Positions 20,616 through 53,860 of a DNA stretch of 64,000 bases are shown here, in pieces. The DNA lies in the sequence record CP089609.1. One strand, written 5' to 3'. The notes under the pieces were generated by a model that saw nothing but the letters and a program-made list of their open reading frames with translations, was not told the origin of the DNA and made no database searches. This stretch comes from a plasmid. The position numbers were made by a program, and so were the translations under genes. Numbering within the stretch: position 1 is the stretch's first letter; every line of letters starts with the position of its first letter.

Positions 20616-21325
20616 GGCTGCACCGCCTCATCGACCGGTTCGGCCGCCAGTTCCTCTGCGCTGCCGCCATTGTGGGCGCGCAGCCAGGTGCCCAATTCTT
20701 TGAGCCGGTCCAGTGACATCAGCGCTTCCACGATCGGGGCGACCTGGTATCGCTCGCCGTCGCCGGTGTCGATCAACAGGTCCAAGCGCACCAGTGAATC
20801 GATAGCGGCTCGGACCGCTTTCTCGTCGCGAACGTGGTTGGTCGCATCAGCGGGCCGGTAGTTGGCGGCCTCGGCCACCAAATCTGAGCGGTCGACGAAT
20901 ACCGCGGGGTCATCGAGATGACGCCCACGCAGCAGCATGCGTAGGTGCACGAGCAGGATCGTTTCTTCCCTCGAATAGCTCTGATCGTGCAACACCGTCG
21001 GGAAGGGCTGACTGCCTCCATCCGGGCGGGCATGACGCTTGTAGGCCACCGCCCGATCGGTATCGACAACCAACTGAATAAACAAATCGTTGAGCCGCGA
21101 CTCCAACAGCGGCCGGTTCTGGATCAGAACCCGCCAGTCAACAGGGTTGCGGTCGGCGGAAATGTAGCGCTTCTTCAACAAGGAAACCAGGGTCCGCCGT
21201 ACATCTGCACCCAACTGCCCCTGATCACCGTCGAACAGCGGCCCCGGGCCGTCAAAGTCCTCCACAGCCTCCGGTGCAGCCCACTGAGGGCCGATCATGT
21301 CTTCGCCGTCACGCATGTCAGTCAT
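20612..21325 (-). CDS. jetB: JetB/MksE-like protein (DUF4194-like)
   Basis: 237 aa when started at ATG 21325 (MTDMRDGED...). The upstream part of the longer ORF is out-of-frame Arg/Trp junk. It overlaps the jetA stop by 8 nt and the jetC start by 4 nt (ATGA). Size and pattern (VSLLKKRYISADRNPVDWRVLIQNRPLLESRLNDLFIQLVVD...) match JetB. Confidence 0.65.
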   Translation of the reverse strand: MTDMRDGEDMIGPQWAAPEAVEDFDGPGPLFDGDQGQLGADVRRTLVSLLKKRYISADRNPVDWRVLIQNRPLLESRLNDLFIQLVVDTDRAVAYKRHARPDGGSQPFPTVLHDQSYSREETILLVHLRMLLRGRHLDDPAVFVDRSDLVAEAANYRPADATNHVRDEKAVRAAIDSLVRLDLLIDTGDGERYQVAPIVEALMSLDRLKELGTWLRAHNGGSAEELAAEPVDEAVQP

Positions 21326-41397: not shown

Positions 41398-42315
41398 ATG
41401 GCCTACGAACGCTGGACACCCATCGCCGCGCAGAGCAACAACTGCTCCCCGCACACCTGGATCCTCTCCTGGGACCGCGACGTCGAATCTCTGCGGGCGG
41501 CGGCGCTGGCCGCCGCCTGGCAGTGGCACCTCGCCCTCGACACCACCCGGAACCACCAGCTCGTCATCGACCTCCATCAGCTCGCGGCCACCCGCTACGC
41601 CGACTACCGCGACGCCTCGACACACGACCGAAACCGCTACCTCAGCACCGTCGAGCACGTGATTCTCGCCGTAGGCCCAGGCTTCGACTGCACCAACCGC
41701 CACCTCCGGTGGATCGCCCGACTCGGCCGCACGACAGGCATTCATCTCGCCGTCGACTCCCGCCACCGCGACGACCCACTGGTAGCCGACGAGTTCATCG
41801 ACAACATCAACGGCTACTGGACGCCCATCCCCAGTGAAACCTCATATCCCAGCAGCTATAGCTATGTCAGCACCGGAGCATTACAGATCCTCACCGACAC
41901 CACCCGAGCTCATGCCGCCACGATTGACGCTCGCGCCTCGGCACTTGACACCATGTTCGCCGGCGCCGCACGCAGTGCACAGCACCTCGTCGACGCGAAC
42001 CCGCTTTCCCCCGACGATCCCCGCATCCAAGCGGTCATTGCCGCGGCCAAAAACCAGCGGTGGCGGGTCACACCGTACAACGCCGGTCGCTGCGATTTCA
42101 TCCATGACGCCAGTGACACCGCGGTGGTGGTGCGCTGGGGCACCGAGCAGCATCCGGTGCGCTACGCGGCCACCGGCCCTGTAGATGCTGAGCGCGGAGC
42201 CGACCGTCGCACCCTGGTCTCGGCCGGCAGCCCGGCCGACGGTGACCCCATCGCCGCGCTGGTGCGGTTCTTCACGCAAGCGCCCCGGCCTGACACGAAC
42301 ACGTTGAGCGAATAG
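41398..42315 (+). CDS. Hypothetical protein, paralog family A (short form)
   Basis: N-terminal HTWILSWDRDVESLRAAALAAAW...YLSTVEHVILAVGPGF...RHLRWIARLGRTTGIHLAVDSRHRDDPL is clearly homologous to 47556-48902, and the C-terminal RWGTEQHPVRYA region as well. CAGGAG SD. Confidence 0.55.
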   Translation: MAYERWTPIAAQSNNCSPHTWILSWDRDVESLRAAALAAAWQWHLALDTTRNHQLVIDLHQLAATRYADYRDASTHDRNRYLSTVEHVILAVGPGFDCTNRHLRWIARLGRTTGIHLAVDSRHRDDPLVADEFIDNINGYWTPIPSETSYPSSYSYVSTGALQILTDTTRAHAATIDARASALDTMFAGAARSAQHLVDANPLSPDDPRIQAVIAAAKNQRWRVTPYNAGRCDFIHDASDTAVVVRWGTEQHPVRYAATGPVDAERGADRRTLVSAGSPADGDPIAALVRFFTQAPRPDTNTLSE

Positions 42316-42376: not shown

Positions 42377-42398
42377 TATACACCCTTTTAGGTGTATT
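42377..42398. promoter_or_regulatory. Palindrome copy 3 (TATACACC-ctttta-GGTGTATt, TATTGT -10-like)
   Basis: Between 41398-42315 and 42515-42805. Confidence 0.55.
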
Positions 42399-42514
42399 GT
42401 TTGATCGGTTGCCACCCCATCTCATCTGCGCAGCCGCACGAGGCCTTCGCGGGCGCGAACCATGTTGCCAGGCAAGCCGGATTCGCCCGCCACGACGACA
42501 GGAGCACTCTTTTG

Positions 42515-42805
42515 ATGGCTACCCGGCGCGAACTGAAGGTCACTCACCGTTTGATCGGTCAGGACAAGGTCGACGAATTCACCGCGCTGTGTTTCGTCCT
42601 GAAATTGCGTCCTCACCAGTTGCTGAGTCAGCTGGTCACAGAGGGAGTCGCTCGGTACCGCGAGGACCCCGATCTCGACGAGGACATTCGCCAGCTCTGC
42701 CAACTACGCCAGCAGCACCTCGACCACATCAGCCACAGAGATGACGACGGTAGGAATTCCTCAGCACACCTTCCGGGTCACTTTGCCGCAGACCGAACTA
42801 CCTGA
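42515..42805 (+). CDS. Small hypothetical protein (candidate DNA-binding/regulator)
   Basis: 96 aa from ATG 42515 with a GGAGC SD. Lies 117 nt downstream of a palindrome copy. Confidence 0.4.
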   Translation: MATRRELKVTHRLIGQDKVDEFTALCFVLKLRPHQLLSQLVTEGVARYREDPDLDEDIRQLCQLRQQHLDHISHRDDDGRNSSAHLPGHFAADRTT

Positions 42806-42825
42806 CCACCAAGGAGATACGTCCG

Positions 42826-43329
42826 ATGACAACGACCACCGCCCCTAGTGCGCAGGTCGCCGGCGCCGAGCCCGGCCCCACTCGGCCCACCAAGCACACC
42901 GCACCGGCACTGCTGGAGACCACCCCTGACGCCAACACCGCGATCTGGACCAGCCACGGCCACGGCGACTACAACGGCCACGACATCACCGCATCCATCG
43001 CCAGCGACGACACCCGGCGCCTCTGGGTCAGCATTGCCGAGGCTGACCCGTTGACCCCCAGCGACGTACGCCAGCTGATCGCGCATCTGCAGTACGCCCT
43101 GACCACGCTGGAGGGCGCCCCGCTCAACGTCGACACCTACCGCGCCCACGCCACCTCTCCACAGAGAGACGGGATCATCGAGGCCGTCGTCGACGAAACC
43201 ACCGACATCGACACCATCACGTCGTTCTGCAGCGACCACCGTGACCGCGGGCGCACTGTGAGCGTCGAAACCAGACACTGGCAGACCCTCACCGAGGCCT
43301 CCGGCTGGCACCGGAATCACGATCTGTAA
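42826..43329 (+). CDS. Hypothetical protein
   Basis: AAGGAGA SD; 167 aa. Confidence 0.5.
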   Translation: MTTTTAPSAQVAGAEPGPTRPTKHTAPALLETTPDANTAIWTSHGHGDYNGHDITASIASDDTRRLWVSIAEADPLTPSDVRQLIAHLQYALTTLEGAPLNVDTYRAHATSPQRDGIIEAVVDETTDIDTITSFCSDHRDRGRTVSVETRHWQTLTEASGWHRNHDL

Positions 43330-43379
43330 CTGGTCATCAGTCCTCACTCGATAGTCGAATCACTGCAAGGGAATCGGTC

Positions 43380-43778
43380 ATGATCTACGGTGCGAGCAAC
43401 CCCGACGAGTATCTGCTCAACCTGACGAAGTCCACCGGATCGCTGATGCTGATCCGCGTCTACCGCACCCCGGCGGGAACGCTTCAGGCGCACTGGGCCA
43501 CTGGCGAGCAGGACACGACCGAAATCGACCCTCTCGACGTCGTCAAGATCGCCCACTCAACCACGGGATGCAGACCCGGCCGTCGGATAGATCCCACCCC
43601 AGGCGATGACGAGCAGCTCGCCACAGCGTGGGAGGCCGGCTATCAGGCCGCACAGAAGTACCAGCGGGAACGTGAGGAAGACCGCCGCGTATTCGAACGC
43701 CACAACCTACCGTGGGGTGGCCTCATCCCGGATCGACCCACCAATCCGTACCGCTCAACACCGGAGTGGGACTTCTAG
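43380..43778 (+). CDS. Hypothetical protein
   Basis: 132-aa ORF. Confidence 0.45.
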   Translation: MIYGASNPDEYLLNLTKSTGSLMLIRVYRTPAGTLQAHWATGEQDTTEIDPLDVVKIAHSTTGCRPGRRIDPTPGDDEQLATAWEAGYQAAQKYQREREEDRRVFERHNLPWGGLIPDRPTNPYRSTPEWDF

Positions 43779-43838
43779 CTGCGCTGTTCCATGACATTCG
43801 TTACAGGAAAAACGAGCGGGGTAAGGAGCGAAAACCCA

Positions 43839-44516
43839 ATGGACGTAACAACAGTCACGAGTCCTGACGCACTGGAAATGCTCACCGACGACAAGGAGAG
43901 TCGCCATGCGGATCTTACGTTGATCGGCGGCCCCGCCAGGGTGGGGAAGACAACTTTGGCCCGGCGCTGGACCGCAACTAGGCCAGCGGAGCTTGTACAC
44001 CTTGATCACCTTCTTCACGCCGTAGCTGCGGTCGCCACGGGGGATGAACTCAGTGCGCTGCGACAAGCGCCGAGCATCACCACTCACAGCCCAGAGCAGT
44101 GGTTAGCCGGACTGCGTGAACGTGACGAAGTGCTCTGGAAGGCGGCGGGAGCTTATTCCACGGCCGCGAAGAGTGGCTTGGTCTTGGAAGGCGGACTCTG
44201 GCCCGACTGGGTAGCCAACATCAGCCGGCCTCATGCGGCGATCTTCATCGTAGACACTGGTGACAGTGCCGATCGCCTGGTCGACATCACGCGCGCTGAC
44301 CCGCATAGCTGGATGGCTCAACGCCGATGGCCGGAGGAAAAGATCCGGAAGTGGGCGTGCTACAACATGTTCCGCAGCACGGTCATCGCCGAACTTGCAG
44401 ATCGTCATGGCTATCCCGTCTTCGATATCGCCGACGGCATAGCTGCAGCCCAGGACAAAGCACTCGCGTACCTCGCGACCATCACAAGTGCAGGGATGAC
44501 TGTTCATGAGCATTGA
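43839..44516 (+). CDS. P-loop NTPase, nucleotide/polynucleotide-kinase-like
   Basis: ATG 43839 with an AAGGAGCG SD. Walker A LIGGPARVGKTTLARRW plus Walker B-like AIFIVDTGD. A locally lower-GC leader. Confidence 0.6.
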   Translation: MDVTTVTSPDALEMLTDDKESRHADLTLIGGPARVGKTTLARRWTATRPAELVHLDHLLHAVAAVATGDELSALRQAPSITTHSPEQWLAGLRERDEVLWKAAGAYSTAAKSGLVLEGGLWPDWVANISRPHAAIFIVDTGDSADRLVDITRADPHSWMAQRRWPEEKIRKWACYNMFRSTVIAELADRHGYPVFDIADGIAAAQDKALAYLATITSAGMTVHEH

Positions 44517-44937
44517 CGCACTCATCACCGCTCGAGAAGCTTCTTACCGCGGCGAAGGGGACTGGAGAACACCGGCCATTTACAACACCGTGGACGAGTT
44601 GCTTTTCCTGCGGGAATCCCGGTACTTGATCGGACCTGACGCTAGAACCGTTGCGGCGCAGAAGTTCACCGCACACAAAGACAACCCCCACTACAGCCAC
44701 GCCCCACCGGGCCAAGGCACTGCTCGCCACTGGACCGCCGAGGAAATCGAGAGCATCAGGCGCTGCTACTGGCGCGAGGAGCATGTTGCCCGTATCCGCC
44801 AGGCGTTTCCCGTTGAAACCGCCGCGTTTGACCGCGAGAAGTGGAATCTTCAGGTGTTTAACGATCCGGAGTTGTGCGACATCTGGGACGAACCTGGTGA
44901 TATCGGCCGGAGCCAGGCCCAAGGCGAGCACCGGTGA
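44506..44937 (+). CDS. Hypothetical protein (overlaps both neighbours; operon member)
   Basis: 143 aa. Start and stop overlap the flanking genes. Confidence 0.45.
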   Translation: MSIDALITAREASYRGEGDWRTPAIYNTVDELLFLRESRYLIGPDARTVAAQKFTAHKDNPHYSHAPPGQGTARHWTAEEIESIRRCYWREEHVARIRQAFPVETAAFDREKWNLQVFNDPELCDIWDEPGDIGRSQAQGEHR

Positions 44938-45830
44938 TCCCCGTGGCGCCAAACGTCTCAAATGGCTGGCACTCCACGCCGGCAACCACGTTGATTGCCG
45001 TTGATCTCGACCGGACCCTGATCTATTCGCGCCGGTGGTTCTCCGACACCGACCGTGACACCGCGTGGTGCGTGGAACGTCGCGATGGCCGAGAAGTTTC
45101 GTTCATGACCCCCGCCGCGATGGCCGCTCTTGAACAGCTGGCAGCGGGCCCGGGCCAGATCGTTGTCCCTGCCACGACCCGCGCCCTGGCCCACTACCAG
45201 CGCATCGCGTTGCCCGGCGGGCCCTACCGCTATGCGGTAACCAGCAACGGAGGCACCATCCTCGTCGACGGGCAGCCCGATCCCACGTGGACCGCGACCG
45301 TGGCGGCCACACTGCGTGCCGAAAGCGTCCCACTCGAAGTGTTGAGGACAGCTCTGCACACCGCGATCAGTGCCGCCGACTGGGTGCACCGTGTCGTTGT
45401 CGTCGACGGACTGTTCTGCTATGTCGCCATTGACGAATCAGCGCTGCCCCAAGACTTCATCGAGTTGTGGAAAGACTGGTGCGAACCGCGCGGCTGGAAA
45501 GTGGTACGCCAGGACCGCAAGATCTACACCCTTCCCCGATCACTGTGTAAATCCCACGCCGTCGAAGAGGTCAGGAAGCGACTTACTACCCGGGGCGAGT
45601 TGATCGCCGACGCGCCGGTGCTTGCTGCTGGCGACGGTGCGCTCGATACGGCACTTCTGGCCGCAGCCAACGCCGCTATACGCCCATCTCACGGCGAGCT
45701 GCACAACACGGGATGGCGCACCGCCAAGACAGTCGTCGCAACGGCATTCGGCGCGAAAGCGGCCGAACAGATTCTGACATGGTGCCGTCTGCGGGCCGAA
45801 GCTGGCCGCGCCGAAGGTACCTCTGTGTAA
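44934..45830 (+). CDS. HAD-superfamily phosphatase (HAD-IIB/Cof-like)
   Basis: Motif I IAVDLDRTLI (DxDxT), motif II VPATTR, motif IV AAGDGALD. Confidence 0.7.
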   Translation: MIPVAPNVSNGWHSTPATTLIAVDLDRTLIYSRRWFSDTDRDTAWCVERRDGREVSFMTPAAMAALEQLAAGPGQIVVPATTRALAHYQRIALPGGPYRYAVTSNGGTILVDGQPDPTWTATVAATLRAESVPLEVLRTALHTAISAADWVHRVVVVDGLFCYVAIDESALPQDFIELWKDWCEPRGWKVVRQDRKIYTLPRSLCKSHAVEEVRKRLTTRGELIADAPVLAAGDGALDTALLAAANAAIRPSHGELHNTGWRTAKTVVATAFGAKAAEQILTWCRLRAEAGRAEGTSV

Positions 45831-45904
45831 CCGACAGGTGGAACACCAACATGTCAGTGGCGGATGCCACACTGACCAACATCTATCCGAGGAGAAGGAC
45901 AGCG

Positions 45905-46150
45905 ATGAACACCGACGGCGCGGAGTGGACCATGTTCACGATCCCTCGCGCGGTCAGGCTGGTGAAATGGCTGATCTACGCGGCTGGCAACGCACTGGCG
46001 GCATATTCGGCGATCACCGCTGCGGGATGGCTGGCCGTCCCCCTGGTCATCGTGTTCGCCGCGTTCGCCATCGCATGCCTGGGCTCAGGCTGGGCAGAGT
46101 GGACCGAACAACGGCCCGAGCTCGGGCCGACGATCGAAAGCCTCCCGTAG
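45905..46150 (+). CDS. Small membrane protein
   Basis: A GAGGAGAAGGA SD 8 nt upstream of ATG 45905; 2 TM helices. Confidence 0.4.
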   Translation: MNTDGAEWTMFTIPRAVRLVKWLIYAAGNALAAYSAITAAGWLAVPLVIVFAAFAIACLGSGWAEWTEQRPELGPTIESLP

Positions 46151-46594
46151 CTACCGGCGAAAGCTGTCCACGGTGTACCGGTCGGGATCTCTGGCGATCA
46201 ACGCCCGTTGGTGCTGATAGTGCACGTCCGAGCCCCACCACGGCGGCGCCAGCCATCCGGCGCTTCGCCCGAAGTGAAGGACTCGCTGCAGTTCGGCGAC
46301 GTGTTTGAGGCGACAGGTAACCTCGTCGGCGCTGATCACCCCATGCTTCTCCAATGCGTATATCGCCCACATGTTGTACACACTCAACGCCGGGCCGTGA
46401 CGGGTCCACTCTCCCAGATCGCTGTCCGGATCGTTGGCATGCAGTTCGATGGCCAACAGGGACAGATTGTGCGCCTCAATGAGTTCTGGACTGTCCAACG
46501 CGCACAGCGCATCTCGATACCGATAGCCGTTGTCCGCCCCAAGGCCAGGGGAGGGAACCCAGATGCGGGAGGACGCATCCGGCGAGCTAGGCAT
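46151..46594 (-). CDS. Hypothetical protein
   Basis: 147-aa ORF. Confidence 0.4.
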   Translation of the reverse strand: MPSSPDASSRIWVPSPGLGADNGYRYRDALCALDSPELIEAHNLSLLAIELHANDPDSDLGEWTRHGPALSVYNMWAIYALEKHGVISADEVTCRLKHVAELQRVLHFGRSAGWLAPPWWGSDVHYQHQRALIARDPDRYTVDSFRR

Positions 46595-47162
46595 CCAAGT
46601 GCTGCGCGCCGCTGAGCGCTGCTTGACGATCGGTCTGCGGCCAGAGGACGCGTGATGCCGCGACGGCCAGTGACATGACCGTGGCCAAGCGCTGCTGTAG
46701 TGCTGCGCCGTCGGCTGGGCGCCAGCCGTTGTCGCGCCACCGTTCGGCCGCGGCCAACAGCCCCACCGAATCGTCGATGCTGTTGGTGACCTCGTGCAGT
46801 GCTGTCACGGCCGCAATGAGATGGTCGGCGTCGCCGCGGCCTTCGCAGGACGGGCAGGGTTCCTCGGCCGGTGTGCCGGCGCCGGGACTGTGCGCGTCGA
46901 GCTCGGCGTAGTCGGCACTGGCGGCCCAGCGCTCCTCAGGATGGACGGTCTTCCACGCCCGTTCAGCATCATCATGGCGCTTCCACCACAGCGCCCCCAG
47001 CGGATTCTCGACAGTGCCGCTGCCGCCGCAGTCCAGGCACTGATTCACAGCTGCTTGTTGGTTGCATGGTTCAGGTGTCCTTTGCGAGCTCGCGCTTCTG
47101 CCGTGGTCAGTGTAGGTCTGGTCACCTCCTGGATCGAGCCATGTCACCAGGACCCAGTCCAT
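46587..47162 (-). CDS. Zinc-ribbon hypothetical protein
   Basis: Started at internal Met MDWVLV (47162); the upstream ORF part is junk. CLDCGGSG...CPSCEGRG is a Cys4 pattern. Confidence 0.45.
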   Translation of the reverse strand: MDWVLVTWLDPGGDQTYTDHGRSASSQRTPEPCNQQAAVNQCLDCGGSGTVENPLGALWWKRHDDAERAWKTVHPEERWAASADYAELDAHSPGAGTPAEEPCPSCEGRGDADHLIAAVTALHEVTNSIDDSVGLLAAAERWRDNGWRPADGAALQQRLATVMSLAVAASRVLWPQTDRQAALSGAQHLDA

Positions 47163-47224
47163 GGGAGCTGGGAGGCCTTCGGCCCGCCTACCGCGCCCGA
47201 TAGCCTGGTCCACGGACCGACTTT

Positions 47225-47246
47225 TATACACCCTCGCCGGTTCATA
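47225..47246. promoter_or_regulatory. Palindrome copy 4, degenerate right arm (TATACACC-ctcgcc-GGTtcATA), between divergent genes 47162(-) and 47556(+)
   Basis: The left arm is perfect; the right arm has 6/8. Confidence 0.4.
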
Positions 47247-47537
47247 GTGTGATGTAGGGGCACCGCCCTCGATCCGCATTTCATGTTGGAGCACCAAGGG
47301 ATATGACGCTCGCCGATGCGGCACTATTCGGTTACGCCAGCACCGACAACGCTCGGCCACCGGCAGTGGTGATGAGCTACGGCATGGGCCTGGATTCATC
47401 GTCATTGTTGCCGACCGCAGCTGTACTGCAGGGAATGTGACTGAGCACCTCACACACGCGGTGTGGGCGACACACACCCCGTGTGGGTCGCCTGGCTAGA
47501 GATGCGTACTGATCGTTGACCGGATCTCCGAAACCCC

Positions 47538-47558
47538 GGGCATATACCTGTGGGCATG
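47538..47558 (+). promoter_or_regulatory. Leaderless motif copy h for 47556-48902
   Basis: GGGCATATACCTGTGGGCATG. Confidence 0.5.
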
Positions 47559-48902
47559 AGCAACATGTCGACTCAGGCGACGACACTGGATGCCTTCAAC
47601 GACGCCCCGCACACCTGGATCGAATGCTGGGATGAGGAGGTCGAGCCGCTGCGAGCCGCGGCGCTGGCCGCCGGCTGGACGTGGCATTGCGTTGATACCT
47701 CCGAGGATCTCCCGGCCCTGCTCTGGGCCCTTGAGCTCGCCAGTTCCCGCCACCAGAACCTCATGCCGGCAGAGCGCCGGCGCTATCTGGCGGCGGTCGG
47801 CCACGTCGTGATCGCCGTCGGCCCCGGCTACCAGGGCAGCTACCGCTATCTGAGGTGGATTGCACGGGCGGGAGCGCGCACCGGAATTCACCTGGCTGTC
47901 GCTGCCAGCCACCGTCGAAACCCCCTGGCCCCTCAGGATCTCAAGGACGGCATCACCGATCCACCGAGTGCGTACGTGGGCCCGGTGTCCGGCTGCGCAG
48001 CCGCCGCGCGGTCCAGCGAGCACCCGTGGCTGCCCACGTCGCCCGATGGGCACGGGCCCGACGACTACAGCGCACCGGCGGCCGGTCTCCTGGGTGCCTT
48101 CCGGCATCGCCTGCGCCGGCGTCGTAACGCCGATCGTCGAGTCCGTCCAGAGCAGCGGGTGTGTTCGGAATCGGATCTGGCTTGGCTCGATGACGATCCT
48201 CGGGTTCAGCTGATCGTCGCTACGGCCACGCGCGAGGGATGGCGCCGTGAACCTGGCGCCCAGACGGCTGTGTGGCGGTTCGTGCACGACATCGGGACAA
48301 CCCTCACGGTGCACTGGGGGACTCCGGAGATGCCGCTACTTCACGCCGCAGCGACCGCGACGGCGACGGTACGTTGGGGCGCCGTCACCTTGCCCGTCCT
48401 GGTAGCTGCCGGCGACACCGCCAGCAGCCCGGCCGACAACATCGTCTTGGCTTGCGACGCCGACGCCCAGTGGATCGAATCGCAGATCGATCGGGTTCAG
48501 AACTTTCTCCGTAGCCATCCCGCCGAATATCGCGTCATGTCCCAGATCTCGGCCGACCCGCGCGCGCGTTCGGTGATCAATACCGCTGAGCAACACGGCT
48601 GGGAAATTCACCCGCACGACGTGGACAGGTGCACCTTCGCCCGAGGTGGAACCGAGATCTGGCTTCGCTGGGGCATCATCGATTGCCCATGGCCATTCCT
48701 CTATGCGCACACCGCCCCGCACGGCGATGGGCCCTCCGTCTACCTCTCTCATGGGGATGATCCTCCCGAGGAGCAGCTCGTGGCCATGCTGCGATTCCTC
48801 GCGGCCCCAGACACCGGCCCAACAGGCGCTTCCTCCAATGCAATCGAGCCGAAAGGCCACAGCTTCGAGTTAGGAGACACATCACTCAATACACCTAAAT
48901 AG
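47556..48902 (+). CDS. Hypothetical protein, paralog family A (long form)
   Basis: Homolog of 41398-42315 (see above). ATG 47556 sits at a leaderless motif. The stop overlaps a palindrome copy. Confidence 0.55.
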   Translation: MSNMSTQATTLDAFNDAPHTWIECWDEEVEPLRAAALAAGWTWHCVDTSEDLPALLWALELASSRHQNLMPAERRRYLAAVGHVVIAVGPGYQGSYRYLRWIARAGARTGIHLAVAASHRRNPLAPQDLKDGITDPPSAYVGPVSGCAAAARSSEHPWLPTSPDGHGPDDYSAPAAGLLGAFRHRLRRRRNADRRVRPEQRVCSESDLAWLDDDPRVQLIVATATREGWRREPGAQTAVWRFVHDIGTTLTVHWGTPEMPLLHAAATATATVRWGAVTLPVLVAAGDTASSPADNIVLACDADAQWIESQIDRVQNFLRSHPAEYRVMSQISADPRARSVINTAEQHGWEIHPHDVDRCTFARGGTEIWLRWGIIDCPWPFLYAHTAPHGDGPSVYLSHGDDPPEEQLVAMLRFLAAPDTGPTGASSNAIEPKGHSFELGDTSLNTPK

Positions 48903-48909
48903 GTGTATT
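48888..48909. promoter_or_regulatory. Palindrome copy 5 (aATACACC-taaata-GGTGTATt), overlaps stop of 47556-48902 and lies 73 nt upstream of the Rnl1-like gene
   Basis: Seen directly. Confidence 0.55.
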
Positions 48910-48981
48910 GTTCGCATCGGGTCACCACCTGACGCAGGCCTCATCAGATCACCGAATGTACCGAGGAACGAGAACCTACCC

Positions 48982-50076
48982 ATGACCGCCGTCACTGATG
49001 TGTTCAGCGAAGACGAACTCGAGGCCGCCATCGGCAGCGGGTTCATCGAGTCTTTCCGGCATCCTCAGCTGCCACTGACCATCTACAACTACACCGAACG
49101 CGCCCAGTTTGAGACCGCCTGGAACGCCGCCACCCGCGCGTGCCGGGGCCTCATCGTCAACGACGATCGCCGGATCGTCGCCCGCCCCTGGGCGAAGTTC
49201 TTCGAGTACAAGCCGGTAGGCGGACAACACGGCCCCGTGGACCTCGACGCAGCTGTCGAGGCCACCGATAAGGTCGACGGATCTCTGGGCATCCTTTACC
49301 CCGCCGGCCACACGTGGGCGATCGCCACCCGTGGATCCTTCACCGGCAACCAGGCCGCTCACGCCACCACCCTCTATCAGCAGCGCTACGCCGGCGCCTG
49401 GTCCCCTGATCCCGAACTGACCTACTTGTTCGAGATCGTCTATCCGGACAACCGGGTCGTCCTGAACTACGGCGACACAGACGATCTCGTCCTTCTCGGC
49501 GCTTGCCGCATCGCTGACGGTGCATCCGTTACAGCAAGTTCGATCGGCGACTGGCCGGGGCCGCGTGCACAGACTCTGCCGGTCACAACCCTTCGCGATG
49601 CGTTGGCCTTCCCAGACCGGGCCAACGCCGAGGGCCTCGTGGTGACCGTGGTGGAATCCGGCCTCAAACTCAAACTCAAACAACGCGATTACGTACTCCG
49701 GCATCGCATGGTCACCGGGATGTCGGCGCTGGCGGTATGGGAGTACTTGGCCACGGGTGCGGGGATTTCAGGTCTGATATCGGATGGGCACCTTCCCGAC
49801 GAGCTCCACGACTGGGCCCGCGCCGTTGTCGCCGAGCTGCAAGGCCAGCATCTCGCGCTCAAAGATGCCGCCGAACAGGCACATGCAGAGATCATCGCGC
49901 GCCTCGAACCCGGGCACACCCGAAAGGACTATGCCGCCGAGGCTGTCAAACACGCTGACCTGAAAGGCTTCCTGTTCGCGCTCGCGGACGGGCGCCTGGA
50001 CAAGTTCGAGGCTGCGTTGTGGAAGTCCGTTCGACCTGATGCCAACGAACTGCGCTCCGAAGGGGCTTCCCGATGA
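48982..50076 (+). CDS. T4 Rnl1-family ATP-dependent RNA ligase
   Basis: Motif I TDKVDGSLGILY (compare T4 Rnl1 LTKEDGSLVSTY). N-terminal LTIYNYTERAQF...RACRGLIVN...RIVARPWAKFFEY parallels T4 Rnl1 RIFSYNYASYSDW..ALECRGIMFE..VRIASRPMEKFFNL. Later EGLVV..SGLKLKLKQRDY parallels [20 protein letters not shown]. About 364 aa, the same size class as gp63. Confidence 0.8.
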   Translation: MTAVTDVFSEDELEAAIGSGFIESFRHPQLPLTIYNYTERAQFETAWNAATRACRGLIVNDDRRIVARPWAKFFEYKPVGGQHGPVDLDAAVEATDKVDGSLGILYPAGHTWAIATRGSFTGNQAAHATTLYQQRYAGAWSPDPELTYLFEIVYPDNRVVLNYGDTDDLVLLGACRIADGASVTASSIGDWPGPRAQTLPVTTLRDALAFPDRANAEGLVVTVVESGLKLKLKQRDYVLRHRMVTGMSALAVWEYLATGAGISGLISDGHLPDELHDWARAVVAELQGQHLALKDAAEQAHAEIIARLEPGHTRKDYAAEAVKHADLKGFLFALADGRLDKFEAALWKSVRPDANELRSEGASR

Positions 50077-51097
50077 ATCACCAGCCGCCCCGCCCCGCCT
50101 CGACCAATCACGCACCCGCCGAGCGTGGCCTCGCCCCTATACTCGGAACTTTCCCGTCTGTCAGAATCGCACTGTTCGGGCCCCGAGTCTTGTTCGCCTA
50201 CCTGGGCGCGATGAACACGCTCTACCTCATCGGCTACATGTTGGCGGCCATCTTTCCCCGGCCCCCTGCCACCATTTTGGAGTACGACACCGCGGGCGCC
50301 ATGCTGTCGGTTTTCGGCGAGGTTTTCTCCGGAATTCGAGATTTTGCCGCGCAATGGGCATTCTTCGGCGCCACGCCTTCTCCCCTCGTCGCCGGCGGCC
50401 TCGTCGTCTTTTCCCTGATGTGTGGTCACGCACTGGCGACCATGTCCCGGCCCGCCCGCCGACGGCCCGAACTTGTCGAACGCTTGATTCAGCTCCCAGA
50501 CGTGGCTGCCGATAACGGCGACCAGCTCGGCGCCGTGGACGCCAAGGATCGGGCCCAACGGACACGCGGGACAAGATCGCCGACGTACATGCCGCCCTGT
50601 CCCAGCTGGATGCGGAGTGGCTTGCTTACACCATGGACGTGACCGCCTACTACCTCACCAAACCTGTTCTGCGGGACGCCGATACACCGCAGACTGCGGC
50701 ATACCAGGCCGCGCTCTACGAGTTGCGTGAGCGCTCAGAAGGCCTCGGCGACCATTCCAGCGACAGTCAGATCCAAGCCGCCGAGAAGGCCGCGGACTCA
50801 GCGTTGCAAGCGTGGGCGACAGCCAACGACCATGCTCTGACGGTCGGTGTCAGTGATCGCAGCCCGACCGAACGGGCCGCGCTGCGCCGTCTCCACGCTC
50901 TGATCGGCCAGTTGAGCGACCCAGCAACACCGAAGCCGATGCGCGACACCATCGTCGAGGCGATGGCCCGCGAAATGGACAAGCTGACCACGGTTCCCGC
51001 TTCACGGGAACACCTGGCGGCTTTGCCGGCATTGGCGGGACGCAACTTCGACGCAATCGCGTCCGGCCGGTCGAAGCAGCCGACTGTTGAGAGATGA
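50073..51097 (+). CDS. Membrane protein; either two genes (50073-50642, 50633-51097) or one gene with a frameshift near 50555-50575
   Basis: The GC3 signal moves from frame 0 to frame 2 around 50560, and frame 2 reads protein-like (RDKIADVHAALSQLDAEWLAYT) upstream of the annotated ATG 50633. Confidence 0.4.
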
Positions 51098-51122: not shown

Positions 51123-51144
51123 CATACACCGCTTCGGGTGTATA
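51123..51144. promoter_or_regulatory. Palindrome copy 6 (cATACACC-gcttcg-GGTGTATA, TATAGT)
   Basis: 43 nt upstream of the 51187 TTG start. Confidence 0.55.
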
Positions 51145-51186: not shown

Positions 51187-51522
51187 TTGACAACCACCGC
51201 TGAGCAGTTGGCCGCCTACAAGGCGCAGATCGACGCAAAGTATGCACGTGGCTACGTCCCGGCGAAATCTGCTGCCGCGCAGCGCCACCAACGGATCGCC
51301 GAGGACCGCGCTCAGCCCGGCTGGCTACTCCTCGATCCGAACGGTGTCGTTGACGGCTTCCACACCTACTCGCGTGATCTCGGCTGGGACACCACTGAAA
51401 ACGTGTGGGAGAAGTTCGAGAAGCGCAAGCGCGACCGCGAACGGCTGCAGTCAGAGGGATGGACGGTCATCCGCGACGACGGCCGAGTCCGCAACACAAC
51501 CCCGACAGCCAACGAACCGTGA
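51187..51522 (+). CDS. Hypothetical protein (TTG start, GAGGAGGG SD)
   Basis: 111 aa. The start is 43 nt after a palindrome copy. Confidence 0.5.
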   Translation: MTTTAEQLAAYKAQIDAKYARGYVPAKSAAAQRHQRIAEDRAQPGWLLLDPNGVVDGFHTYSRDLGWDTTENVWEKFEKRKRDRERLQSEGWTVIRDDGRVRNTTPTANEP

Positions 51523-51532
51523 GAGAAACGCA

Positions 51533-51703
51533 GTGGCAACCAAGTACAGCAACACATTCGTCGAATTCAACGCCCTAGAGGCAGCGCTCTCTGATGACAC
51601 CGAAGGCATGCGCCAGGTGCTGGCATCGATGTTTCCCACAGAGCGCCAAGCACTCAAACGAGCAATGCTCGATGTGGTCGACGCGATAGACGATCTGGAC
51701 TGA
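51533..51703 (+). CDS. Small hypothetical protein (56 aa, GTG start)
   Basis: Coding-like tail of ORF 51242-51703. Confidence 0.3.
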   Translation: MATKYSNTFVEFNALEAALSDDTEGMRQVLASMFPTERQALKRAMLDVVDAIDDLD

Positions 51704-51708
51704 CTGAC

Positions 51709-52179
51709 ATGTCCACACAGCCCAGGACGAGGCCGCTGACCGACAACCAGCTCGAAGTGCTGCGTCAGTTCGGTTCCGAGACCGGCTGGCTGCGGCCACT
51801 GGACCTCGGCGGGAGTAACCGCTCCAACCACAGCGCGGTCCTGGCGCAGCTGCAACGCCGCGGCCTCGTCGACTCGAAGGTCCGCTCACACGGCGTACGA
51901 GGCTCCAAGCTCTACAGGATCACTCCCGCCGGCCGCCACGCACTCCTGACTCGCACCACAGCGGTGAACACGCCAGGAGGCGTGGAACACGGCGGGTCTG
52001 AATCCACACCCCAACATCGCCCTACCACCGCCGCCCGGTGCCGCGCACTCGCCGACCAGCTGGACACAGCGGACCCGACCAAAGCATCGAACTACCGCCA
52101 GTTCGCCGACGCGCTCGACCACAAAGACATGGGCGCAATCTGCGCCGTCAGTGCATCCATCAACCACACCGTCGGCTGA
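51709..52179 (+). CDS. Winged-helix (MarR/PadR-like) DNA-binding protein
   Basis: LTDNQLEVLRQFGSETGWLRPLDL...NHSAVLAQLQRRGLVDS...KLYRITPAGRHAL. Confidence 0.5.
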   Translation: MSTQPRTRPLTDNQLEVLRQFGSETGWLRPLDLGGSNRSNHSAVLAQLQRRGLVDSKVRSHGVRGSKLYRITPAGRHALLTRTTAVNTPGGVEHGGSESTPQHRPTTAARCRALADQLDTADPTKASNYRQFADALDHKDMGAICAVSASINHTVG

Positions 52180-52193
52180 ACCACGGAGGCGAC

Positions 52194-52643
52194 ATGGACC
52201 CGATCGATCACGTTGTTCGTACATCATTGCCTTGGCGCAGTGAATCTTTGACCGAATGTGGGCGAGGACTCAACGATGTCGGCTCAGCGATCACTCAGCA
52301 AAAGCTCCACGAGCGCGTCAAGGAGTACGGCGCGCAGCGTACCGCGTTCACCGTGTGCATGACGTGCTGGACGACGGCCTCAGCACACCGGGAAACCTGG
52401 GAATCTGACCCCATCGCAGTGCTCTACCGAGAGGCGCAGCGCGCTGGAGGCGCACTGGTGAGCCCGCGCTCCGACAGACCGGAACGAGTACTACTGACAG
52501 CGGAACTGCGGGCCATTGCAGCACTGATCGAGGCGCATCGCGACGAGTTCGATCATTACATCGCCAGCCTGGCCGAAACGGCAAGCCTCGACGCCGTGCG
52601 GAACGCACGTAGATCGAGTCAACTACGCCGCGCCCCTCGCTAG
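52194..52643 (+). CDS. Hypothetical protein
   Basis: ATG with a GGAGGCGAC SD; 149 aa. Confidence 0.45.
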   Translation: MDPIDHVVRTSLPWRSESLTECGRGLNDVGSAITQQKLHERVKEYGAQRTAFTVCMTCWTTASAHRETWESDPIAVLYREAQRAGGALVSPRSDRPERVLLTAELRAIAALIEAHRDEFDHYIASLAETASLDAVRNARRSSQLRRAPR

Positions 52644-52680: not shown

Positions 52681-53603
52681 ATGTCCACCCGCTGGTTGAG
52701 CCCCTTGCGGTACCCCGGCGGAAAAGGGCGCATGGCCGACGCGTTAGCCGACGTGTTCCAACAGCAGTTCGGTCTGCTCGACGTCGAAGTATGGGCCGAG
52801 CCATTCGCCGGCGGCGCGGGGGCCGGACTGCATCTGCTCGATCGCGGCGTCGTCGACGAGGTCTGGCTGACCGAGAGAAACCCGGCCCTGGCCGCGTTCT
52901 GGCGCACCACCACCACCAACAGCGACGAACTGGCCGCGCGGGTCCGCACATGCCAACCCGACATGTCCACCTGGCACGCCGCGCGCGAGATCGTCGCGGA
53001 GGCGCGGACTGGCGCCGAGATCGCCGATCTCGACCTCGCATTCGCCGCCCTTCTCATCAACCGGTGCTCACGTTCAGGCATGGTCAACCCCAGTGTCGGC
53101 CCGATCGGCGGCAAGAACCAGAACGGCCGCTGGCACCTTCGCTCCCGATGGAACCCCGAGGGCCTGTCCGAACGCATCGATTCGATCGGACGGCTCGGCA
53201 ACCGGATCCGCGTCAGCGAAGGAGATGCGATCACACACATCGCGGAGTTGAACGGATCGGTGGGCATTGAGCACGAGCTCCTGCTGTTCGTCGACCCGCC
53301 CTATCTGGTCCAGGGCAACAAGCTTTATCACGACGGTATGACCTTCGACGACCACAAGAACCTCGCCGAGGCACTACCAACTGCGCAGCTCGCTGGCTGC
53401 TCACCTACGACAGCGACGAACGCATCCTCGGCCTCTATCCGGGCCATCGCATCCTGGCCTACGAGATCGCCCACACCGCTAACCAGGCCCGCATCGAAGA
53501 GGAATACGCGGTCCTATCCGACAATCTCGCGGTCCGCGACGACCAAAACCTACTCACCACGGGCGCATCCCGATGGGTCCAGCACGAGCCCACGCACAAC
53601 TAG
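52681..53603 (+). pseudogene. Dam-family N6-adenine DNA methyltransferase with apparent +1 frameshift near 53380-53390
   Basis: Motif I YPGGKGR, FAGGAG and motif IV FVDPPY are all present. After ...FDDHKNLAEAL the annotated frame turns to Pro/Ser/Thr junk, while the adjacent frame reads ARWLLTYDSDERILGLYPGHRILAYEI..., the canonical Dam C-terminus, ending at TAG 53601-53603. Confidence 0.7.
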
Positions 53604-53629
53604 TCCACCCCGCGAGGAAGGAAACCCGC

Positions 53630-53860
53630 ATGTCAACACCCACCGGCGACCACGAATGGACTAGCGAAGCTGTCGACGGCGCATCTCTAGTCCACCTGGC
53701 CCGCCTCGCAACGGCCGGCGACCAGACCGACATCGTCATGTACGTCCGCAGGCAGGCACACCGGCTCCGCACCCGGGCCCCACAAACGTCACAAGCGCTC
53801 ACCGCACTGATCGACGGAGCTGCCCCGCCTCCCAGCCCGCTACGTGGTGCAGCAACATGA
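53630..53860 (+). CDS. Small hypothetical protein
   Basis: ATG 53630 with a GAGGAAGGAAAC SD. Confidence 0.4.
   Translation: MSTPTGDHEWTSEAVDGASLVHLARLATAGDQTDIVMYVRRQAHRLRTRAPQTSQALTALIDGAAPPPSPLRGAAT

What the first reader, a model, noticed from the sequence alone, without database searches (positions are those of the whole stretch)
43839..50076. Candidate RNA-repair gene set: P-loop kinase + HAD phosphatase + T4 Rnl1-family RNA ligase
48982-50076 shows near-diagnostic similarity to T4 RNA ligase 1 (gp63): motif I TDKVDGSLGILY versus LTKEDGSLVSTY, and matching upstream and downstream blocks. Within 4 kb upstream lies an overlapping three-gene operon encoding a Walker-A kinase-like protein (43839-44516) and a HAD phosphatase (DxDxT, GDGxxD; 44934-45830). 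In T4, Pnkp (kinase + phosphatase) plus Rnl1 repair tRNA cut by anticodon nucleases (PrrC). A split kinase/phosphatase/ligase set on an actinobacterial mobile element would be a counter-defence or RNA-damage-repair module. As far as I know this is not a standard feature of such elements. The ligase gene has a palindrome operator immediately upstream.
Basis: partly seen in the sequence, partly recalled or inferred. Interest (0 to 1): 0.75.

Follow-up and report, generated by a model that had tools for sequence, protein, structure and literature searches.

The report
Lone plasmid RNA ligase, unrelated kinase-phosphatase cassette
A large mycobacterial conjugative plasmid carries a genuine T4-Rnl1-type RNA ligase, but the nearby kinase and phosphatase genes are a separate, movable small-molecule cassette, so the proposed three-part RNA-repair set is not supported.

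Summary
The sequence features are real. 48982-50076 encodes a full-length Rnl1-family RNA ligase: Pfam PF09511 above its cut-off, PHROG 562 at 8e-56, and the KxDG lysine and the other nucleotidyl-transferase motifs invariant across homologues. 43839-45830 is an overlapping three-gene operon of a P-loop kinase, a 143-aa orphan protein and a HAD phosphatase. An 11+11 bp palindrome lies 72 nt upstream of the ligase.

The functional link is not supported. The kinase-orphan-HAD block is a precise 2.05-kb indel. A syntenic plasmid whose ligase is 90% identical lacks it. Three other contexts carry it with no ligase within 10 kb. In PLSDB no plasmid holds both a ligase and a kinase or HAD homologue.

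The HAD is a capped subclass-IIB enzyme whose structural neighbours are sugar-phosphate phosphatases. It branches inside the HADs of the Ter-linked "nucleoside-like metabolite" gene clusters (64% identity). The kinase model is closest to gluconate, APS and nucleotide kinases.

Actinophage and prophage relatives of the ligase do sit next to true Pnkp genes. The window HAD does not match that phosphatase model, and the window holds no Pnkp homologue.

The palindrome belongs to a plasmid-wide operator motif with 8 copies in the window.

Verdict: a stand-alone ligase, a new member of a known kind, next to an unrelated metabolite cassette.

The parts
48982..50076 (+). Rnl1-family (T4 RnlA-like) ATP-dependent RNA ligase, 364 aa. 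It belongs to the conserved plasmid backbone.
   Evidence: PF09511 scores 36.3 bits against a cut-off of 28.3. phrog_562 matches at 8e-56 over nearly the full length. It aligns to T4 Rnl1 2c5u. R55, K72, F74, K97, D99, G100, R117, E151, E217, G218, K231 and K233 are invariant in 27 homologues. It is 45-46% identical to actinophage RNA ligases. dN/dS is 0.13-0.19.
48887..48910 (.). Perfect 11+11 bp palindrome, 72 nt upstream of the ligase ATG and overlapping the stop codon of the 450-aa gene. It is one copy of the plasmid-wide operator-like motif ATACACC-N6-GGTGTAT.
   Evidence: The motif occurs 8 times in the window with 0 expected. It is conserved at the same position in L014 and L015.
50073..51097 (+). 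Gene translationally coupled to the ligase by an ATGA overlap. Its product has N-terminal hydrophobic segments that look membrane-spanning (my reading of the sequence, not tested) and a conserved helical C-terminal domain. It is a single 338-aa ORF in relatives but is split by a frameshift here (50073-50642 and 50633-51097).
   Evidence: No Pfam, PHROG or PADLOC family matches. The C-terminal domain is multi-copy on related plasmids.
43779..45830 (+). The kinase-orphan-HAD cassette: a precise 2.05-kb indel relative to the syntenic plasmid backbone.
   Evidence: The junction alignment shows that the L014 sequence continues directly from the stop of the 132-aa gene into the sequence that follows the HAD stop in the window. 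The cassette is absent from L014 and present as a unit in L004/5, L029/30 and L031.
43839..44516 (+). P-loop kinase-like protein (225 aa) with a nucleotide or small-molecule kinase fold. Substrate unknown.
44506..44937 (+). 143-aa orphan protein between the kinase and the HAD. It is fused to the HAD in one relative.
   Evidence: No family hit. It has only 4 representatives among 1.84 billion proteins. P0063 (454 aa) is a fusion of the middle protein and the HAD. dN/dS is 0.30.
44934..45830 (+). HAD subclass-IIB (C2B-capped) phosphatase, derived from the HAD of Ter-linked biosynthetic clusters.
   Evidence: The profile matches PDB 6cj0/6d3v at 9.5e-22. The AF2 model has pLDDT 95.6 with an alpha/beta cap at roughly residues 112-203. 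The Foldseek top 50 are all HAD-IIB sugar-phosphate enzymes. It is 64% identical to the HAD of the M. alvei Ter cluster and nested among Ter HADs in a tree.
42378..42397 (.). A copy of the same operator-like motif, upstream of the + strand gene run (137-, 167- and 132-aa genes) into which the cassette is inserted.

Best explanation
Two independent things lie side by side on a large mycobacterial conjugative plasmid.

(A) The ligase. It is a stand-alone Rnl1-family RNA ligase and part of the conserved plasmid backbone. It sits behind a plasmid-wide operator palindrome and is translationally coupled to a protein of unknown function that has N-terminal hydrophobic, apparently membrane-spanning segments. 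By homology it should self-adenylylate on K97 and seal 3'-OH/5'-phosphate nicks in RNA, in tRNA-like loops. It was most likely acquired from actinophage RNA-repair modules, where its closest relatives sit next to Pnkp, and it has lost the Pnkp partner. I infer that on its own it can only reseal breaks that already carry 5'-P and 3'-OH ends, or breaks healed by host enzymes.

(B) The cassette. It is a movable three-gene unit of a P-loop kinase, an orphan protein and a capped HAD-IIB phosphatase. Its phosphatase descends from the HAD of Ter-associated 'nucleoside-like metabolite' clusters. I infer that it phosphorylates and dephosphorylates a small molecule, of sugar-phosphate or nucleoside-like type, and not RNA ends.

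Shown here: the family assignments, the motif conservation, the cap domain, the indel boundaries, the independent distribution of the two parts, and purifying selection on all the genes. Inferred: the substrates and the biological roles.
For: Ligase identity. PF09511 above its cut-off. phrog_562 at 8e-56. Alignment to T4 Rnl1 with the catalytic residues matched. Motifs invariant in 27 homologues. dN/dS 0.13-0.19.

Independence of the two parts. L014 and L015 share the backbone order RNB, 305, 137, 167, 132, [gap], membrane protein, 147, 296, 450, ligase, 338-aa gene, then Dam, at 75-90% amino-acid identity, but lack the cassette, and the junctions are exact. The cassette is intact in L004/5, L029/30 and L031 with no ligase within 10 kb. 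The kinase occurs alone in M. abscessus and M. aubagnense plasmids. In PLSDB the ligase is on 27 plasmids, the kinase on 2 and the HAD on 8, and no plasmid with the ligase has either of the others.

HAD. The model is a capped IIB enzyme and the matches are sugar-phosphate phosphatases. Its homologues lie in TerD / HpcH / PRTase / StiP / HAD clusters. The cassette HADs are nested in that clade. The window HAD gives no hit to HAD_PNKP or HAD_SAK_2, while the control proteins do.

Kinase. Its structural neighbours are generic small-molecule and NMP kinases. The hhalign probability against Pnkp is 15% over 39 columns.

True Pnkp genes. They lie beside the ligase relatives in phage Seahorse, phage BillNye and a Xylanimonas prophage. 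None is detectable in the window or in any plasmid locus that carries the ligase.
Against: - The kinase belongs to the same broad P-loop clan (AAA_33, gluconate kinase, CPT, zeta toxin) that includes polynucleotide kinases. It has a conserved Asp (D56) at the position of their catalytic base, so activity on RNA 5'-OH ends cannot be excluded by sequence or fold.
- In one further plasmid lineage (L016) a kinase homologue lies 3.5 kb from a ligase homologue. That makes two of the plasmid contexts examined with both genes.
- Both operons sit behind the same operator motif, although 8 sites in the window share it.
- Only 64 kb of a plasmid of roughly 220 kb was available, so a Ter cluster or a Pnkp elsewhere on the plasmid is not excluded.
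- No substrate was tested.
- A ligase with no healing enzyme has no demonstrated source of ligatable breaks in mycobacteria.
Confidence: 0.72

Rival explanations
1. The kinase heals 5'-OH ends, the HAD removes 3'- or 2',3'-cyclic phosphate, and the Rnl1 ligase seals. Together they form a split Pnkp/Rnl1 pathway that repairs tRNA cut by anticodon nucleases.
For: All three enzyme classes lie within 6.3 kb on one mobile element. The kinase is in the AAA_33 clan, which also holds the Pnkp kinase domains. L016 also has a kinase and a ligase 3.5 kb apart. Both operons carry the same operator motif. Split stand-alone HADs do accompany RNA ligases elsewhere, for example HAD_SAK_2 in L025 (PMC7824862).
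Against: The HAD is a capped IIB enzyme of Ter-cluster descent and does not match either RNA-repair HAD family. Capped HADs generally take small substrates; this is established HAD-superfamily knowledge and my own basis. The cassette is absent where the ligase is conserved and present where the ligase is absent. There is no co-occurrence in 72,556 plasmids. The two parts are in different transcription units, separated by opposite-strand genes. The hhalign probabilities against Pnkp are 15% for the kinase and 6% for the HAD.
Confidence: 0.08
2. The ligase is a plasmid anti-defence or anti-toxin factor that works alone. After plasmid entry or establishment it reseals host or plasmid RNAs (tRNA, rRNA) nicked by nucleases that leave 5'-P/3'-OH ends, such as the metal-dependent PIN/VapC-type toxins I know to be abundant in mycobacteria. 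It might do so together with the neighbouring RNB exoribonuclease.
For: The ligase is conserved on the backbone under strong purifying selection in several plasmid lineages with different neighbours. It lies in a same-strand gene run with an orphan Dam-type methyltransferase and behind a plasmid-wide operator. Ligases of the Rnl1/Rnl2 type need exactly 5'-P and 3'-OH ends (PMC7824862). There is no healing enzyme nearby. An RNB+dsRBD exoribonuclease is conserved 8 kb upstream.
Against: This is purely inferential. The end chemistry of mycobacterial VapC products was not verified here. No defence-system or anti-defence model hits the ligase. The window holds no tRNA genes and no Rfam element. The coupled downstream gene is frameshifted in this copy.
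Confidence: 0.15
3. The ligase is a passenger left over from a phage-derived insertion and has no role for the plasmid, or it acts on nucleic acids other than damaged RNA, for example in conjugative DNA/RNA processing.
For: Its closest characterised-type relatives are phage genes. It has no conserved functional partner across plasmid lineages. Two nearby genes in this copy are frameshifted.
Against: dN/dS is 0.13-0.19 and every catalytic motif is retained across plasmid lineages that are 53-90% identical. Its place in the syntenic backbone is conserved, operator included.
Confidence: 0.05

Closest known systems
Bacteriophage T4 RNA ligase 1 (RnlA/gp63) with Pnkp: tRNA anticodon-loop repair after PrrC cleavage
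   Same: The window ligase shares the Rnl1 family fold and motifs. The equivalents of T4 R54, K75, F77, K99, G102, E159, E227, G228, K240 and K242 are all present. The profile match also covers the Rnl1-specific C-terminal region.
   Different: Identity to T4 Rnl1 is low (E 7e-4). The NCBIfam equivalog score is 48.9 against a cut-off of 242. The position of T4 K119 is Arg (R117), and this Arg is invariant in the whole actinobacterial clade. No Pnkp is present. The gene sits on a conjugative plasmid and not on a lytic phage.
Actinophage and prophage Rnl1+Pnkp pairs (Arthrobacter phage Seahorse gp81/gp82; Streptomyces phage BillNye gp095/gp089; Xylanimonas protaetiae prophage)
   Same: These are the closest annotated relatives of the ligase, at 45-49% identity over the full length.
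   Different: In those genomes the ligase is next to, or overlaps, a gene with a full AAA_33 domain plus HAD_PNKP (1e-43 to 1e-47). In the plasmid the downstream coupled gene is instead a protein with no family match and hydrophobic N-terminal segments.
HAD phosphatase of Ter (tellurite-resistance) linked biosynthetic clusters: TerD, HpcH/HpaI lyase, PRTase, StiP, HAD. Anantharaman, Iyer and Aravind (2012) predicted these clusters make a nucleoside-like metabolite, as cited in PMC8115787.
   Same: The window HAD is 64% identical to the HAD of the M. alvei pJCM12272 Ter cluster. The cassette HADs branch inside the mycobacterial Ter-cluster HADs.
   Different: The window holds no TerD, lyase, PRTase or StiP gene. 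The partners here are a P-loop kinase and an orphan protein.
Pseudomonas aeruginosa 'chromosomal trehalose-6-phosphate phosphatase' (PDB 6CJ0/6D3V) and other HAD-IIB sugar-phosphate phosphatases
   Same: This is the best solved-structure match by sequence profile (9.5e-22) and by fold (Foldseek 1.9e-16, TM 0.67-0.80). It has the same core and the same C2B cap.
   Different: Identity is only 24%, so the substrate cannot be transferred.
Gluconate kinase, APS kinase, dephospho-CoA kinase, AK6 and shikimate kinase: the P-loop small-molecule and NMP kinases
   Different: Identity is at most 19%. The family is essentially confined to Mycobacteriaceae, with about 44 clusters. It has its own invariant residues: LRxRD, EGGxWPD and FxVDT.

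Membership tests
Rnl1 (T4 RnlA-type) RNA ligase family | Match to the family profile above the curated threshold | tested here: met
   PF09511 scores 36.3 bits against a cut-off of 28.3. phrog_562 matches at 8e-56, residues 18-352 against profile positions 20-362 of 377.
Rnl1 (T4 RnlA-type) RNA ligase family | Motif I lysine (KxDG), the site of adenylylation | tested here: met
   K97-V-D99-G100 aligns with T4 K99-E-D-G and is invariant in 27 homologues.
Rnl1 (T4 RnlA-type) RNA ligase family | The other residues essential in T4 Rnl1 (R54, K75, F77, G102, K119, E159, E227, G228, K240, K242; the list is from my own knowledge of the Shuman-lab mutagenesis) | tested here: met
   R55, K72, F74, G100, E151, E217-G218, K231 and K233 are present and invariant. 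The K119 position is R117, a conservative change that is invariant in the clade.
Rnl1 (T4 RnlA-type) RNA ligase family | Orthology to T4 RnlA (NCBIfam equivalog TIGR02308) | tested here: not met
   48.9 bits against a cut-off of 242.25. It is a family member but not an equivalog of the T4 enzyme.
Rnl1 (T4 RnlA-type) RNA ligase family | ATP-dependent sealing of 3'-OH/5'-P RNA ends | not testable with these tools
   This needs an enzyme assay.
T4-type Pnkp (polynucleotide 5'-kinase / 3'-phosphatase) | Phosphatase domain of the HAD_PNKP type (PF25109) | tested here: not met
   The window HAD gives no hit at E<=5. The controls Seahorse gp82 and the Xylanimonas neighbour hit at 4.8e-47 and 2.5e-43. 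hhalign of the HAD family against actinophage Pnkp gives 6% probability over 43 columns.
T4-type Pnkp (polynucleotide 5'-kinase / 3'-phosphatase) | Capless (C0) HAD core that admits polynucleotide ends | tested here: not met
   The AF2 model (pLDDT 95.6) has an alpha/beta C2B cap of about 90 residues. The Foldseek top 50 are all capped HAD-IIB enzymes.
T4-type Pnkp (polynucleotide 5'-kinase / 3'-phosphatase) | Kinase domain that matches AAA_33 over its full length above threshold and resembles Pnk | tested here: not met
T4-type Pnkp (polynucleotide 5'-kinase / 3'-phosphatase) | Conserved linkage with the RNA ligase | tested here: not met
   The cassette is absent from L014 and L015, which keep the ligase. 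It is present without a ligase in L004/5, L029/30 and L031. There is no co-occurrence in PLSDB.
Swiss-army-knife (SAK) stand-alone RNA-repair HAD | Match to HAD_SAK_2 (PF18143) or related models | tested here: not met
   No hit at E<=5. The control protein from L025 hits at 2.9e-13.
HAD superfamily, subclass IIB | Catalytic motifs I-IV (DxDxT, T/S, K, GDxxxD) | tested here: met
   D24, D26, T28, T81, K206, G233, D234 and D238 are invariant in 56 homologues.
HAD superfamily, subclass IIB | C2B alpha/beta cap inserted between motifs II and III | tested here: met
   Model elements H117-145, E151-166, H175-186 and E188-201. The best structural matches are TPP, SPP, Cof-type and PMM enzymes.
HAD superfamily, subclass IIB | Curated sequence model TIGR01484 above its cut-off | tested here: not met
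   21 bits against 41.8. The family is divergent, so the assignment rests on structure and on the PDB profile match.
Ter-cluster-associated HAD phosphatase | Close sequence relationship to the HAD genes inside TerD / lyase / PRTase / StiP clusters | tested here: met
   64% identity to M. alvei, 55% to M. abscessus pGD25-3, and 45-49% to Rhodococcus and Nocardia chromosomal copies. It is nested among them in an NJ tree.
Ter-cluster-associated HAD phosphatase | Genomic context with TerD, PRTase, C-C lyase and StiP | tested here: not met
   No homologue of these is found in the 64-kb window. The rest of the plasmid was not available.

The most novel reading that the evidence does not exclude
A stand-alone, phage-derived Rnl1 ligase has been fixed on the backbone of a family of mycobacterial conjugative plasmids and placed under a plasmid-wide operator. 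It acts as an RNA-level counter-defence, resealing tRNA or rRNA nicked with 5'-P/3'-OH ends by host toxins or defence nucleases during plasmid establishment. In some lineages the kinase of the movable cassette, whose fold does not exclude polynucleotide substrates, may have been recruited to extend this to 5'-OH ends.
Probability: 0.12. Interest if true: 0.7.

Novelty: new member of a known kind. Interest (0 to 1): 0.3.

Why it matters
RNA repair by Rnl1 is a textbook phage counter-defence. Finding the ligase fixed on a conjugative plasmid backbone in mycobacteria, without its Pnkp partner, suggests that plasmids may also protect RNA, or use RNA ligation in some other way. Mycobacteria are, to my knowledge, hosts rich in RNA-cutting toxins.

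Showing that the neighbouring kinase and HAD genes are an unrelated cassette derived from a Ter-cluster HAD prevents a mis-annotation as a 'split Pnkp'. It also points to an uncharacterised small-molecule cassette that moves between mycobacterial plasmids.

The plasmid-wide operator motif gives a handle on the global regulation of these poorly studied plasmids.

Tried and rejected
- **Pnkp elsewhere in the window.** tblastn with two actinophage Pnkp proteins found only a 41-residue P-loop match. No Pnkp was found in any plasmid locus that carries the ligase.
- **Known defence or anti-defence system.** PADLOC gave only a weak P-loop hit for the kinase.
- **tRNA genes or structured RNAs near the ligase.** ARAGORN found none and Rfam found none at gathering thresholds.
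- **Terminator or promoter scan of 43-51.5 kb.** Nothing above the shuffled expectation.
- **Chain of association from the ligase to the 338-aa protein to the kinase.** In L016 a protein with the same C-terminal domain precedes the kinase. I rejected this as weak evidence, because that domain is multi-copy on these plasmids: it occurs twice in L029.
- **Genome-contig scan for ligase relatives.** It returned only 8 distant loci and no mycobacterial ones, so it did not help with linkage.
- **Near-identical DNA in PLSDB.** No match.
- **Viral structure library search with the kinase model.** Only weak, mixed nucleotide-kinase and Pnk hits with TM at most 0.54, so it did not discriminate.
- **afdb50 structure library.** Not available.
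- **Two key papers.** Anantharaman et al. 2012 and Burroughs and Aravind 2016 are not held. Their content is cited second-hand through PMC8115787 and PMC7824862, or from my own knowledge.
- **End chemistry of VapC cleavage products.** I could not confirm it from the papers I searched.

Full report
**What is there**

The window has 61-67% G+C and comes from a large mycobacterial conjugative plasmid.
- The kinase-like protein is 100% identical to a protein annotated on a Mycolicibacterium fortuitum plasmid, found on contigs of up to 220 kb.
- The window also holds VirB4-like (AAA_10), FtsK/SpoIIIE-like, NlpC/P60 and DnaB genes.

Codon-position G+C and homology give the following gene order around the finding:

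| Coordinates | Strand | Gene |
|---|---|---|
| 38838-40835 | - | RNB exoribonuclease |
| 41398-42315 | + | 305-aa protein |
| 42392-43778 | + | three small genes (137, 167 and 132 aa) |
| 43839-44516 | + | kinase |
| 44506-44937 | + | 143-aa 'middle' protein |
| 44934-45830 | + | HAD |
| 45905-46150 | + | 81-aa hydrophobic protein |
| 46151-47477 | - | two opposite-strand genes |
| 47550-48902 | + | 450-aa protein, a paralogue of the 305-aa one |
| 48982-50076 | + | ligase |
| 50073-51097 | + | coupled downstream gene |
| 51187-52643 | + | further small genes |
| 52681-53664 | + | Dam-type methyltransferase |

- The ligase ORF contains K97-V-D99-G100.
- The kinase has the Walker A motif GGPARVGKTT.
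- The HAD has DLDRT and GDGALD.
- The three cassette genes overlap, by 11 nt and by 4 nt.
- A perfect 11+11 bp palindrome lies at 48887-48910.

**The ligase is a true Rnl1-family enzyme**

- It passes the Pfam PF09511 threshold, at 36.3 bits against 28.3.
- It matches PHROG 562 ('RNA ligase and tail fiber protein attachment catalyst', the T4 gp63 group) at 8e-56 over residues 18-352.
- It aligns to the T4 Rnl1 crystal-structure sequence.

In that alignment, and in an alignment of 27 homologues of 37-90% identity, the counterparts of the T4 residues known to be essential are invariant: R55, K72, F74, K97, G100, E151, E217-G218 and K231/K233. The position of T4 K119 is an invariant arginine, R117.

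It is not an equivalog of T4 RnlA by NCBIfam, at 48.9 bits against 242. The family has more than 2,100 members at E<=1e-10; the named ones among the best 120 are nearly all actinobacterial. The closest annotated relatives, at 45-46% identity, are the 'RNA ligase' genes of Streptomyces and Arthrobacter phages. dN/dS against plasmid orthologues is 0.13-0.19.

**What the ligase's relatives sit next to**

- In Arthrobacter phage Seahorse the ligase (gp81) overlaps a 'polynucleotide kinase' gene (gp82).
- In Streptomyces phage BillNye a polynucleotide kinase gene lies 1.4 kb downstream.
- In a Xylanimonas prophage the next, overlapping gene carries AAA_33 plus HAD_PNKP.
- In a Streptosporangium prophage a HAD_SAK_2 protein lies 1 kb downstream.

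So the classical healing-and-sealing pair exists in this ligase clade. That gave me positive controls for testing the window proteins.

**The kinase and the HAD fail those tests**

*HAD.*
- Scanned at E<=5, the window HAD hits neither HAD_PNKP nor HAD_SAK_2. The controls hit at 4.8e-47, 2.5e-43 and 2.9e-13.
- hhalign of the HAD family (56 sequences) against actinophage Pnkp gives 6% probability, covering motif I only.
- The HAD profile matches the P. aeruginosa trehalose-6-phosphate phosphatase structures at 9.5e-22 over the full length.
- Its AlphaFold model (pLDDT 95.6) has an alpha/beta cap of about 90 residues between motifs II and III.
- The 50 best Foldseek matches in the PDB are all HAD-IIB sugar-phosphate phosphatases or mutases. 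Capped HADs generally act on small molecules. The HADs that act on polynucleotides or proteins are capless. This is general HAD-superfamily knowledge and was not tested here.

*Kinase.*
- It reaches only 24-25 bits on AAA_33, against a cut-off of 27, and only over the first half of the model.
- hhalign against Pnkp gives 15% probability over 39 columns, covering the P-loop and the following Asp.

The fold therefore neither points to nor excludes a polynucleotide substrate.

**Where the HAD comes from**

- Chromosomal homologues in Rhodococcus and Nocardia (45-49% identity) are the last gene of a C-C-lyase / PRTase / StiP-PELOTA / HAD operon, flanked by TerD and TerC genes.
- The same arrangement occurs on M. 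alvei pJCM12272 (64% identity) and M. abscessus pGD25-3 (55% identity).
- These are the Ter-linked biosynthetic clusters predicted to make a nucleoside-like metabolite (Anantharaman et al. 2012, as cited in PMC8115787).
- In a neighbour-joining tree the four cassette HADs form one clade. It is sister to the M. alvei Ter HAD and lies inside the mycobacterial Ter HADs.
- The window itself contains no TerD, lyase, PRTase or StiP gene.

**The cassette is a unit, and it is independent of the ligase**

- The order kinase, middle gene, HAD recurs in three other contexts: Mycolicibacterium sp. CBMA 213 plasmid (L004/5), L029/30, and L031, where it lies between conjugation genes. None has a ligase within 10 kb.
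- The middle protein is fused to the HAD in one relative (P0063). It has only four representatives among 1.84 billion proteins.
- L014 and L015 carry the same backbone at 75-90% amino-acid identity, including a ligase that is 90% identical, but lack the cassette. The DNA alignment shows that the L014 sequence runs from the stop codon of the 132-aa gene straight into the sequence that follows the HAD stop in the window. The cassette (43779-45830) is therefore a clean 2.05-kb indel.
- The kinase occurs without the HAD in M. abscessus and M. aubagnense plasmids.
- In PLSDB (72,556 plasmids) the ligase has homologues on 27 plasmids (Rhizobium, Streptomyces, Bacillus, Pontibacillus), the kinase on 2 and the HAD on 8. 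No plasmid has the ligase together with either of the others.
- The one observation in favour of linkage is L016, where a ligase (69% identical) and a kinase (71% identical) lie 3.5 kb apart on opposite strands.

**The palindrome**

The core of the palindrome, ATACACC-N6-GGTGTAT, occurs 8 times in the window, with 0 expected. Seven copies are exact and one has a single mismatch. For six copies I placed a + strand gene start 40-330 nt downstream. The 42378 copy overlaps the first possible start of the next gene, and the 63975 copy is too close to the window end to assign. The copies upstream of the ligase and at 51124 are conserved in L014 and L015. It is therefore better read as the operator of a plasmid-wide regulator than as a ligase-specific control element. 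One copy (42378) precedes the gene run into which the cassette is inserted, so shared regulation is only a weak argument for a shared function.

**Most likely mechanism**

- *Ligase.* The enzyme should adenylylate K97 with ATP, transfer AMP to a 5'-phosphate RNA end, and seal it to a 3'-OH, as T4 Rnl1 does. This is inferred from the conserved catalytic residues. Ligases of this type need 5'-P and 3'-OH ends (PMC7824862). With no healing enzyme nearby, the enzyme is limited to breaks that already have those ends, or to ends healed by host factors. Its retention on the backbone under purifying selection argues for a real role. An RNA-level protective or counter-defence role is the most attractive idea, but it is untested.
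- *Cassette.* A small-molecule kinase-fold protein together with a Ter-type capped phosphatase points to phosphorylation and dephosphorylation of a sugar-like or nucleoside-like metabolite. The substrate is unknown.

**Novelty and score**

Rnl1-family ligases, their actinophage relatives and stand-alone bacterial 'RNA ligase' genes are all known and annotated. A copy on a mycobacterial conjugative plasmid backbone is a new member of a known kind. The tripartite RNA-repair reading, which carried the original interest, is not supported. I set interest at 0.3, for the unexplained role of a Pnkp-less plasmid ligase, the uncharacterised cassette and the operator regulon.

Noticed in passing
window 23438, 33461, 41056, 42378, 48889, 51124, 61096, 63975 (20 nt each): The inverted repeat ATACACC-N6-GGTGTAT occurs 8 times with 0 expected by chance, mostly 40-330 nt upstream of + strand gene starts, and is conserved in the related plasmid loci L014 and L015. 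It looks like the operator set of one plasmid-encoded global regulator. A protein at 51709-52179 that looks to me like a winged-helix DNA binder is an untested candidate.
   Followed up: partly
window 50073-51097: The gene translationally coupled to the ligase is one 338-aa ORF in L014 and L015 but is split here by a frameshift near 50540-50570 (50073-50642 plus 50633-51097). Its C-terminal helical domain recurs in several proteins of related plasmids. No family matches it.
   Followed up: partly
window 52681-53664: The Dam-type (D12 class) DNA methyltransferase is frameshifted after about residue 232 relative to its L014 and L004 orthologues. The conserved C-terminus can be read in another frame. 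With the split gene above, that makes two frameshifts within 3.5 kb, from either sequencing error or gene decay.
   Followed up: partly
window 38838-40835 (-): A plasmid-borne RNase II/R-family (RNB) exoribonuclease with a C-terminal double-stranded-RNA-binding motif. It is 84% conserved in L014 and is transcribed divergently from an operator copy. It is a second RNA-metabolism gene on the backbone, about 8 kb from the ligase.
   Followed up: partly
window 41398-42315 and 47550-48902: Two paralogous proteins of unknown function (305 and 450 aa, 33-35% identity, no family hit). Each is followed directly by a copy of the operator palindrome and similar downstream sequence, which suggests an old segmental duplication.
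   Followed up: partly
window 17253-21793 (-): An SbcC/MukB-like ATPase of 1120 aa next to a DUF4194 protein. This resembles the JetC and JetB genes of a Wadjet-type anti-plasmid system, carried here on a plasmid.
   Followed up: no
window 13067-15157: The DnaB helicase is 696 aa, and its DnaB_C domain matches in two stretches. The extra length of roughly 240 residues suggests an intein.
   Followed up: no
window 46587-47477 (-): This ORF, probably shorter in reality (159 aa in L014), has two CxxCxGxG motifs of the DnaJ or anti-TRAP zinc-finger type. It lies between the cassette and the ligase on the opposite strand.
   Followed up: no
L029 17663-18247 (-) and 2545-3141: In another plasmid context that carries the kinase-orphan-HAD cassette, a PTP-SAK ('Swiss-army-knife' phosphatase) protein lies about 5.6 kb downstream of the cassette and a metallophosphatase about 7 kb upstream of it. 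No ligase lies within 10 kb.
   Followed up: no
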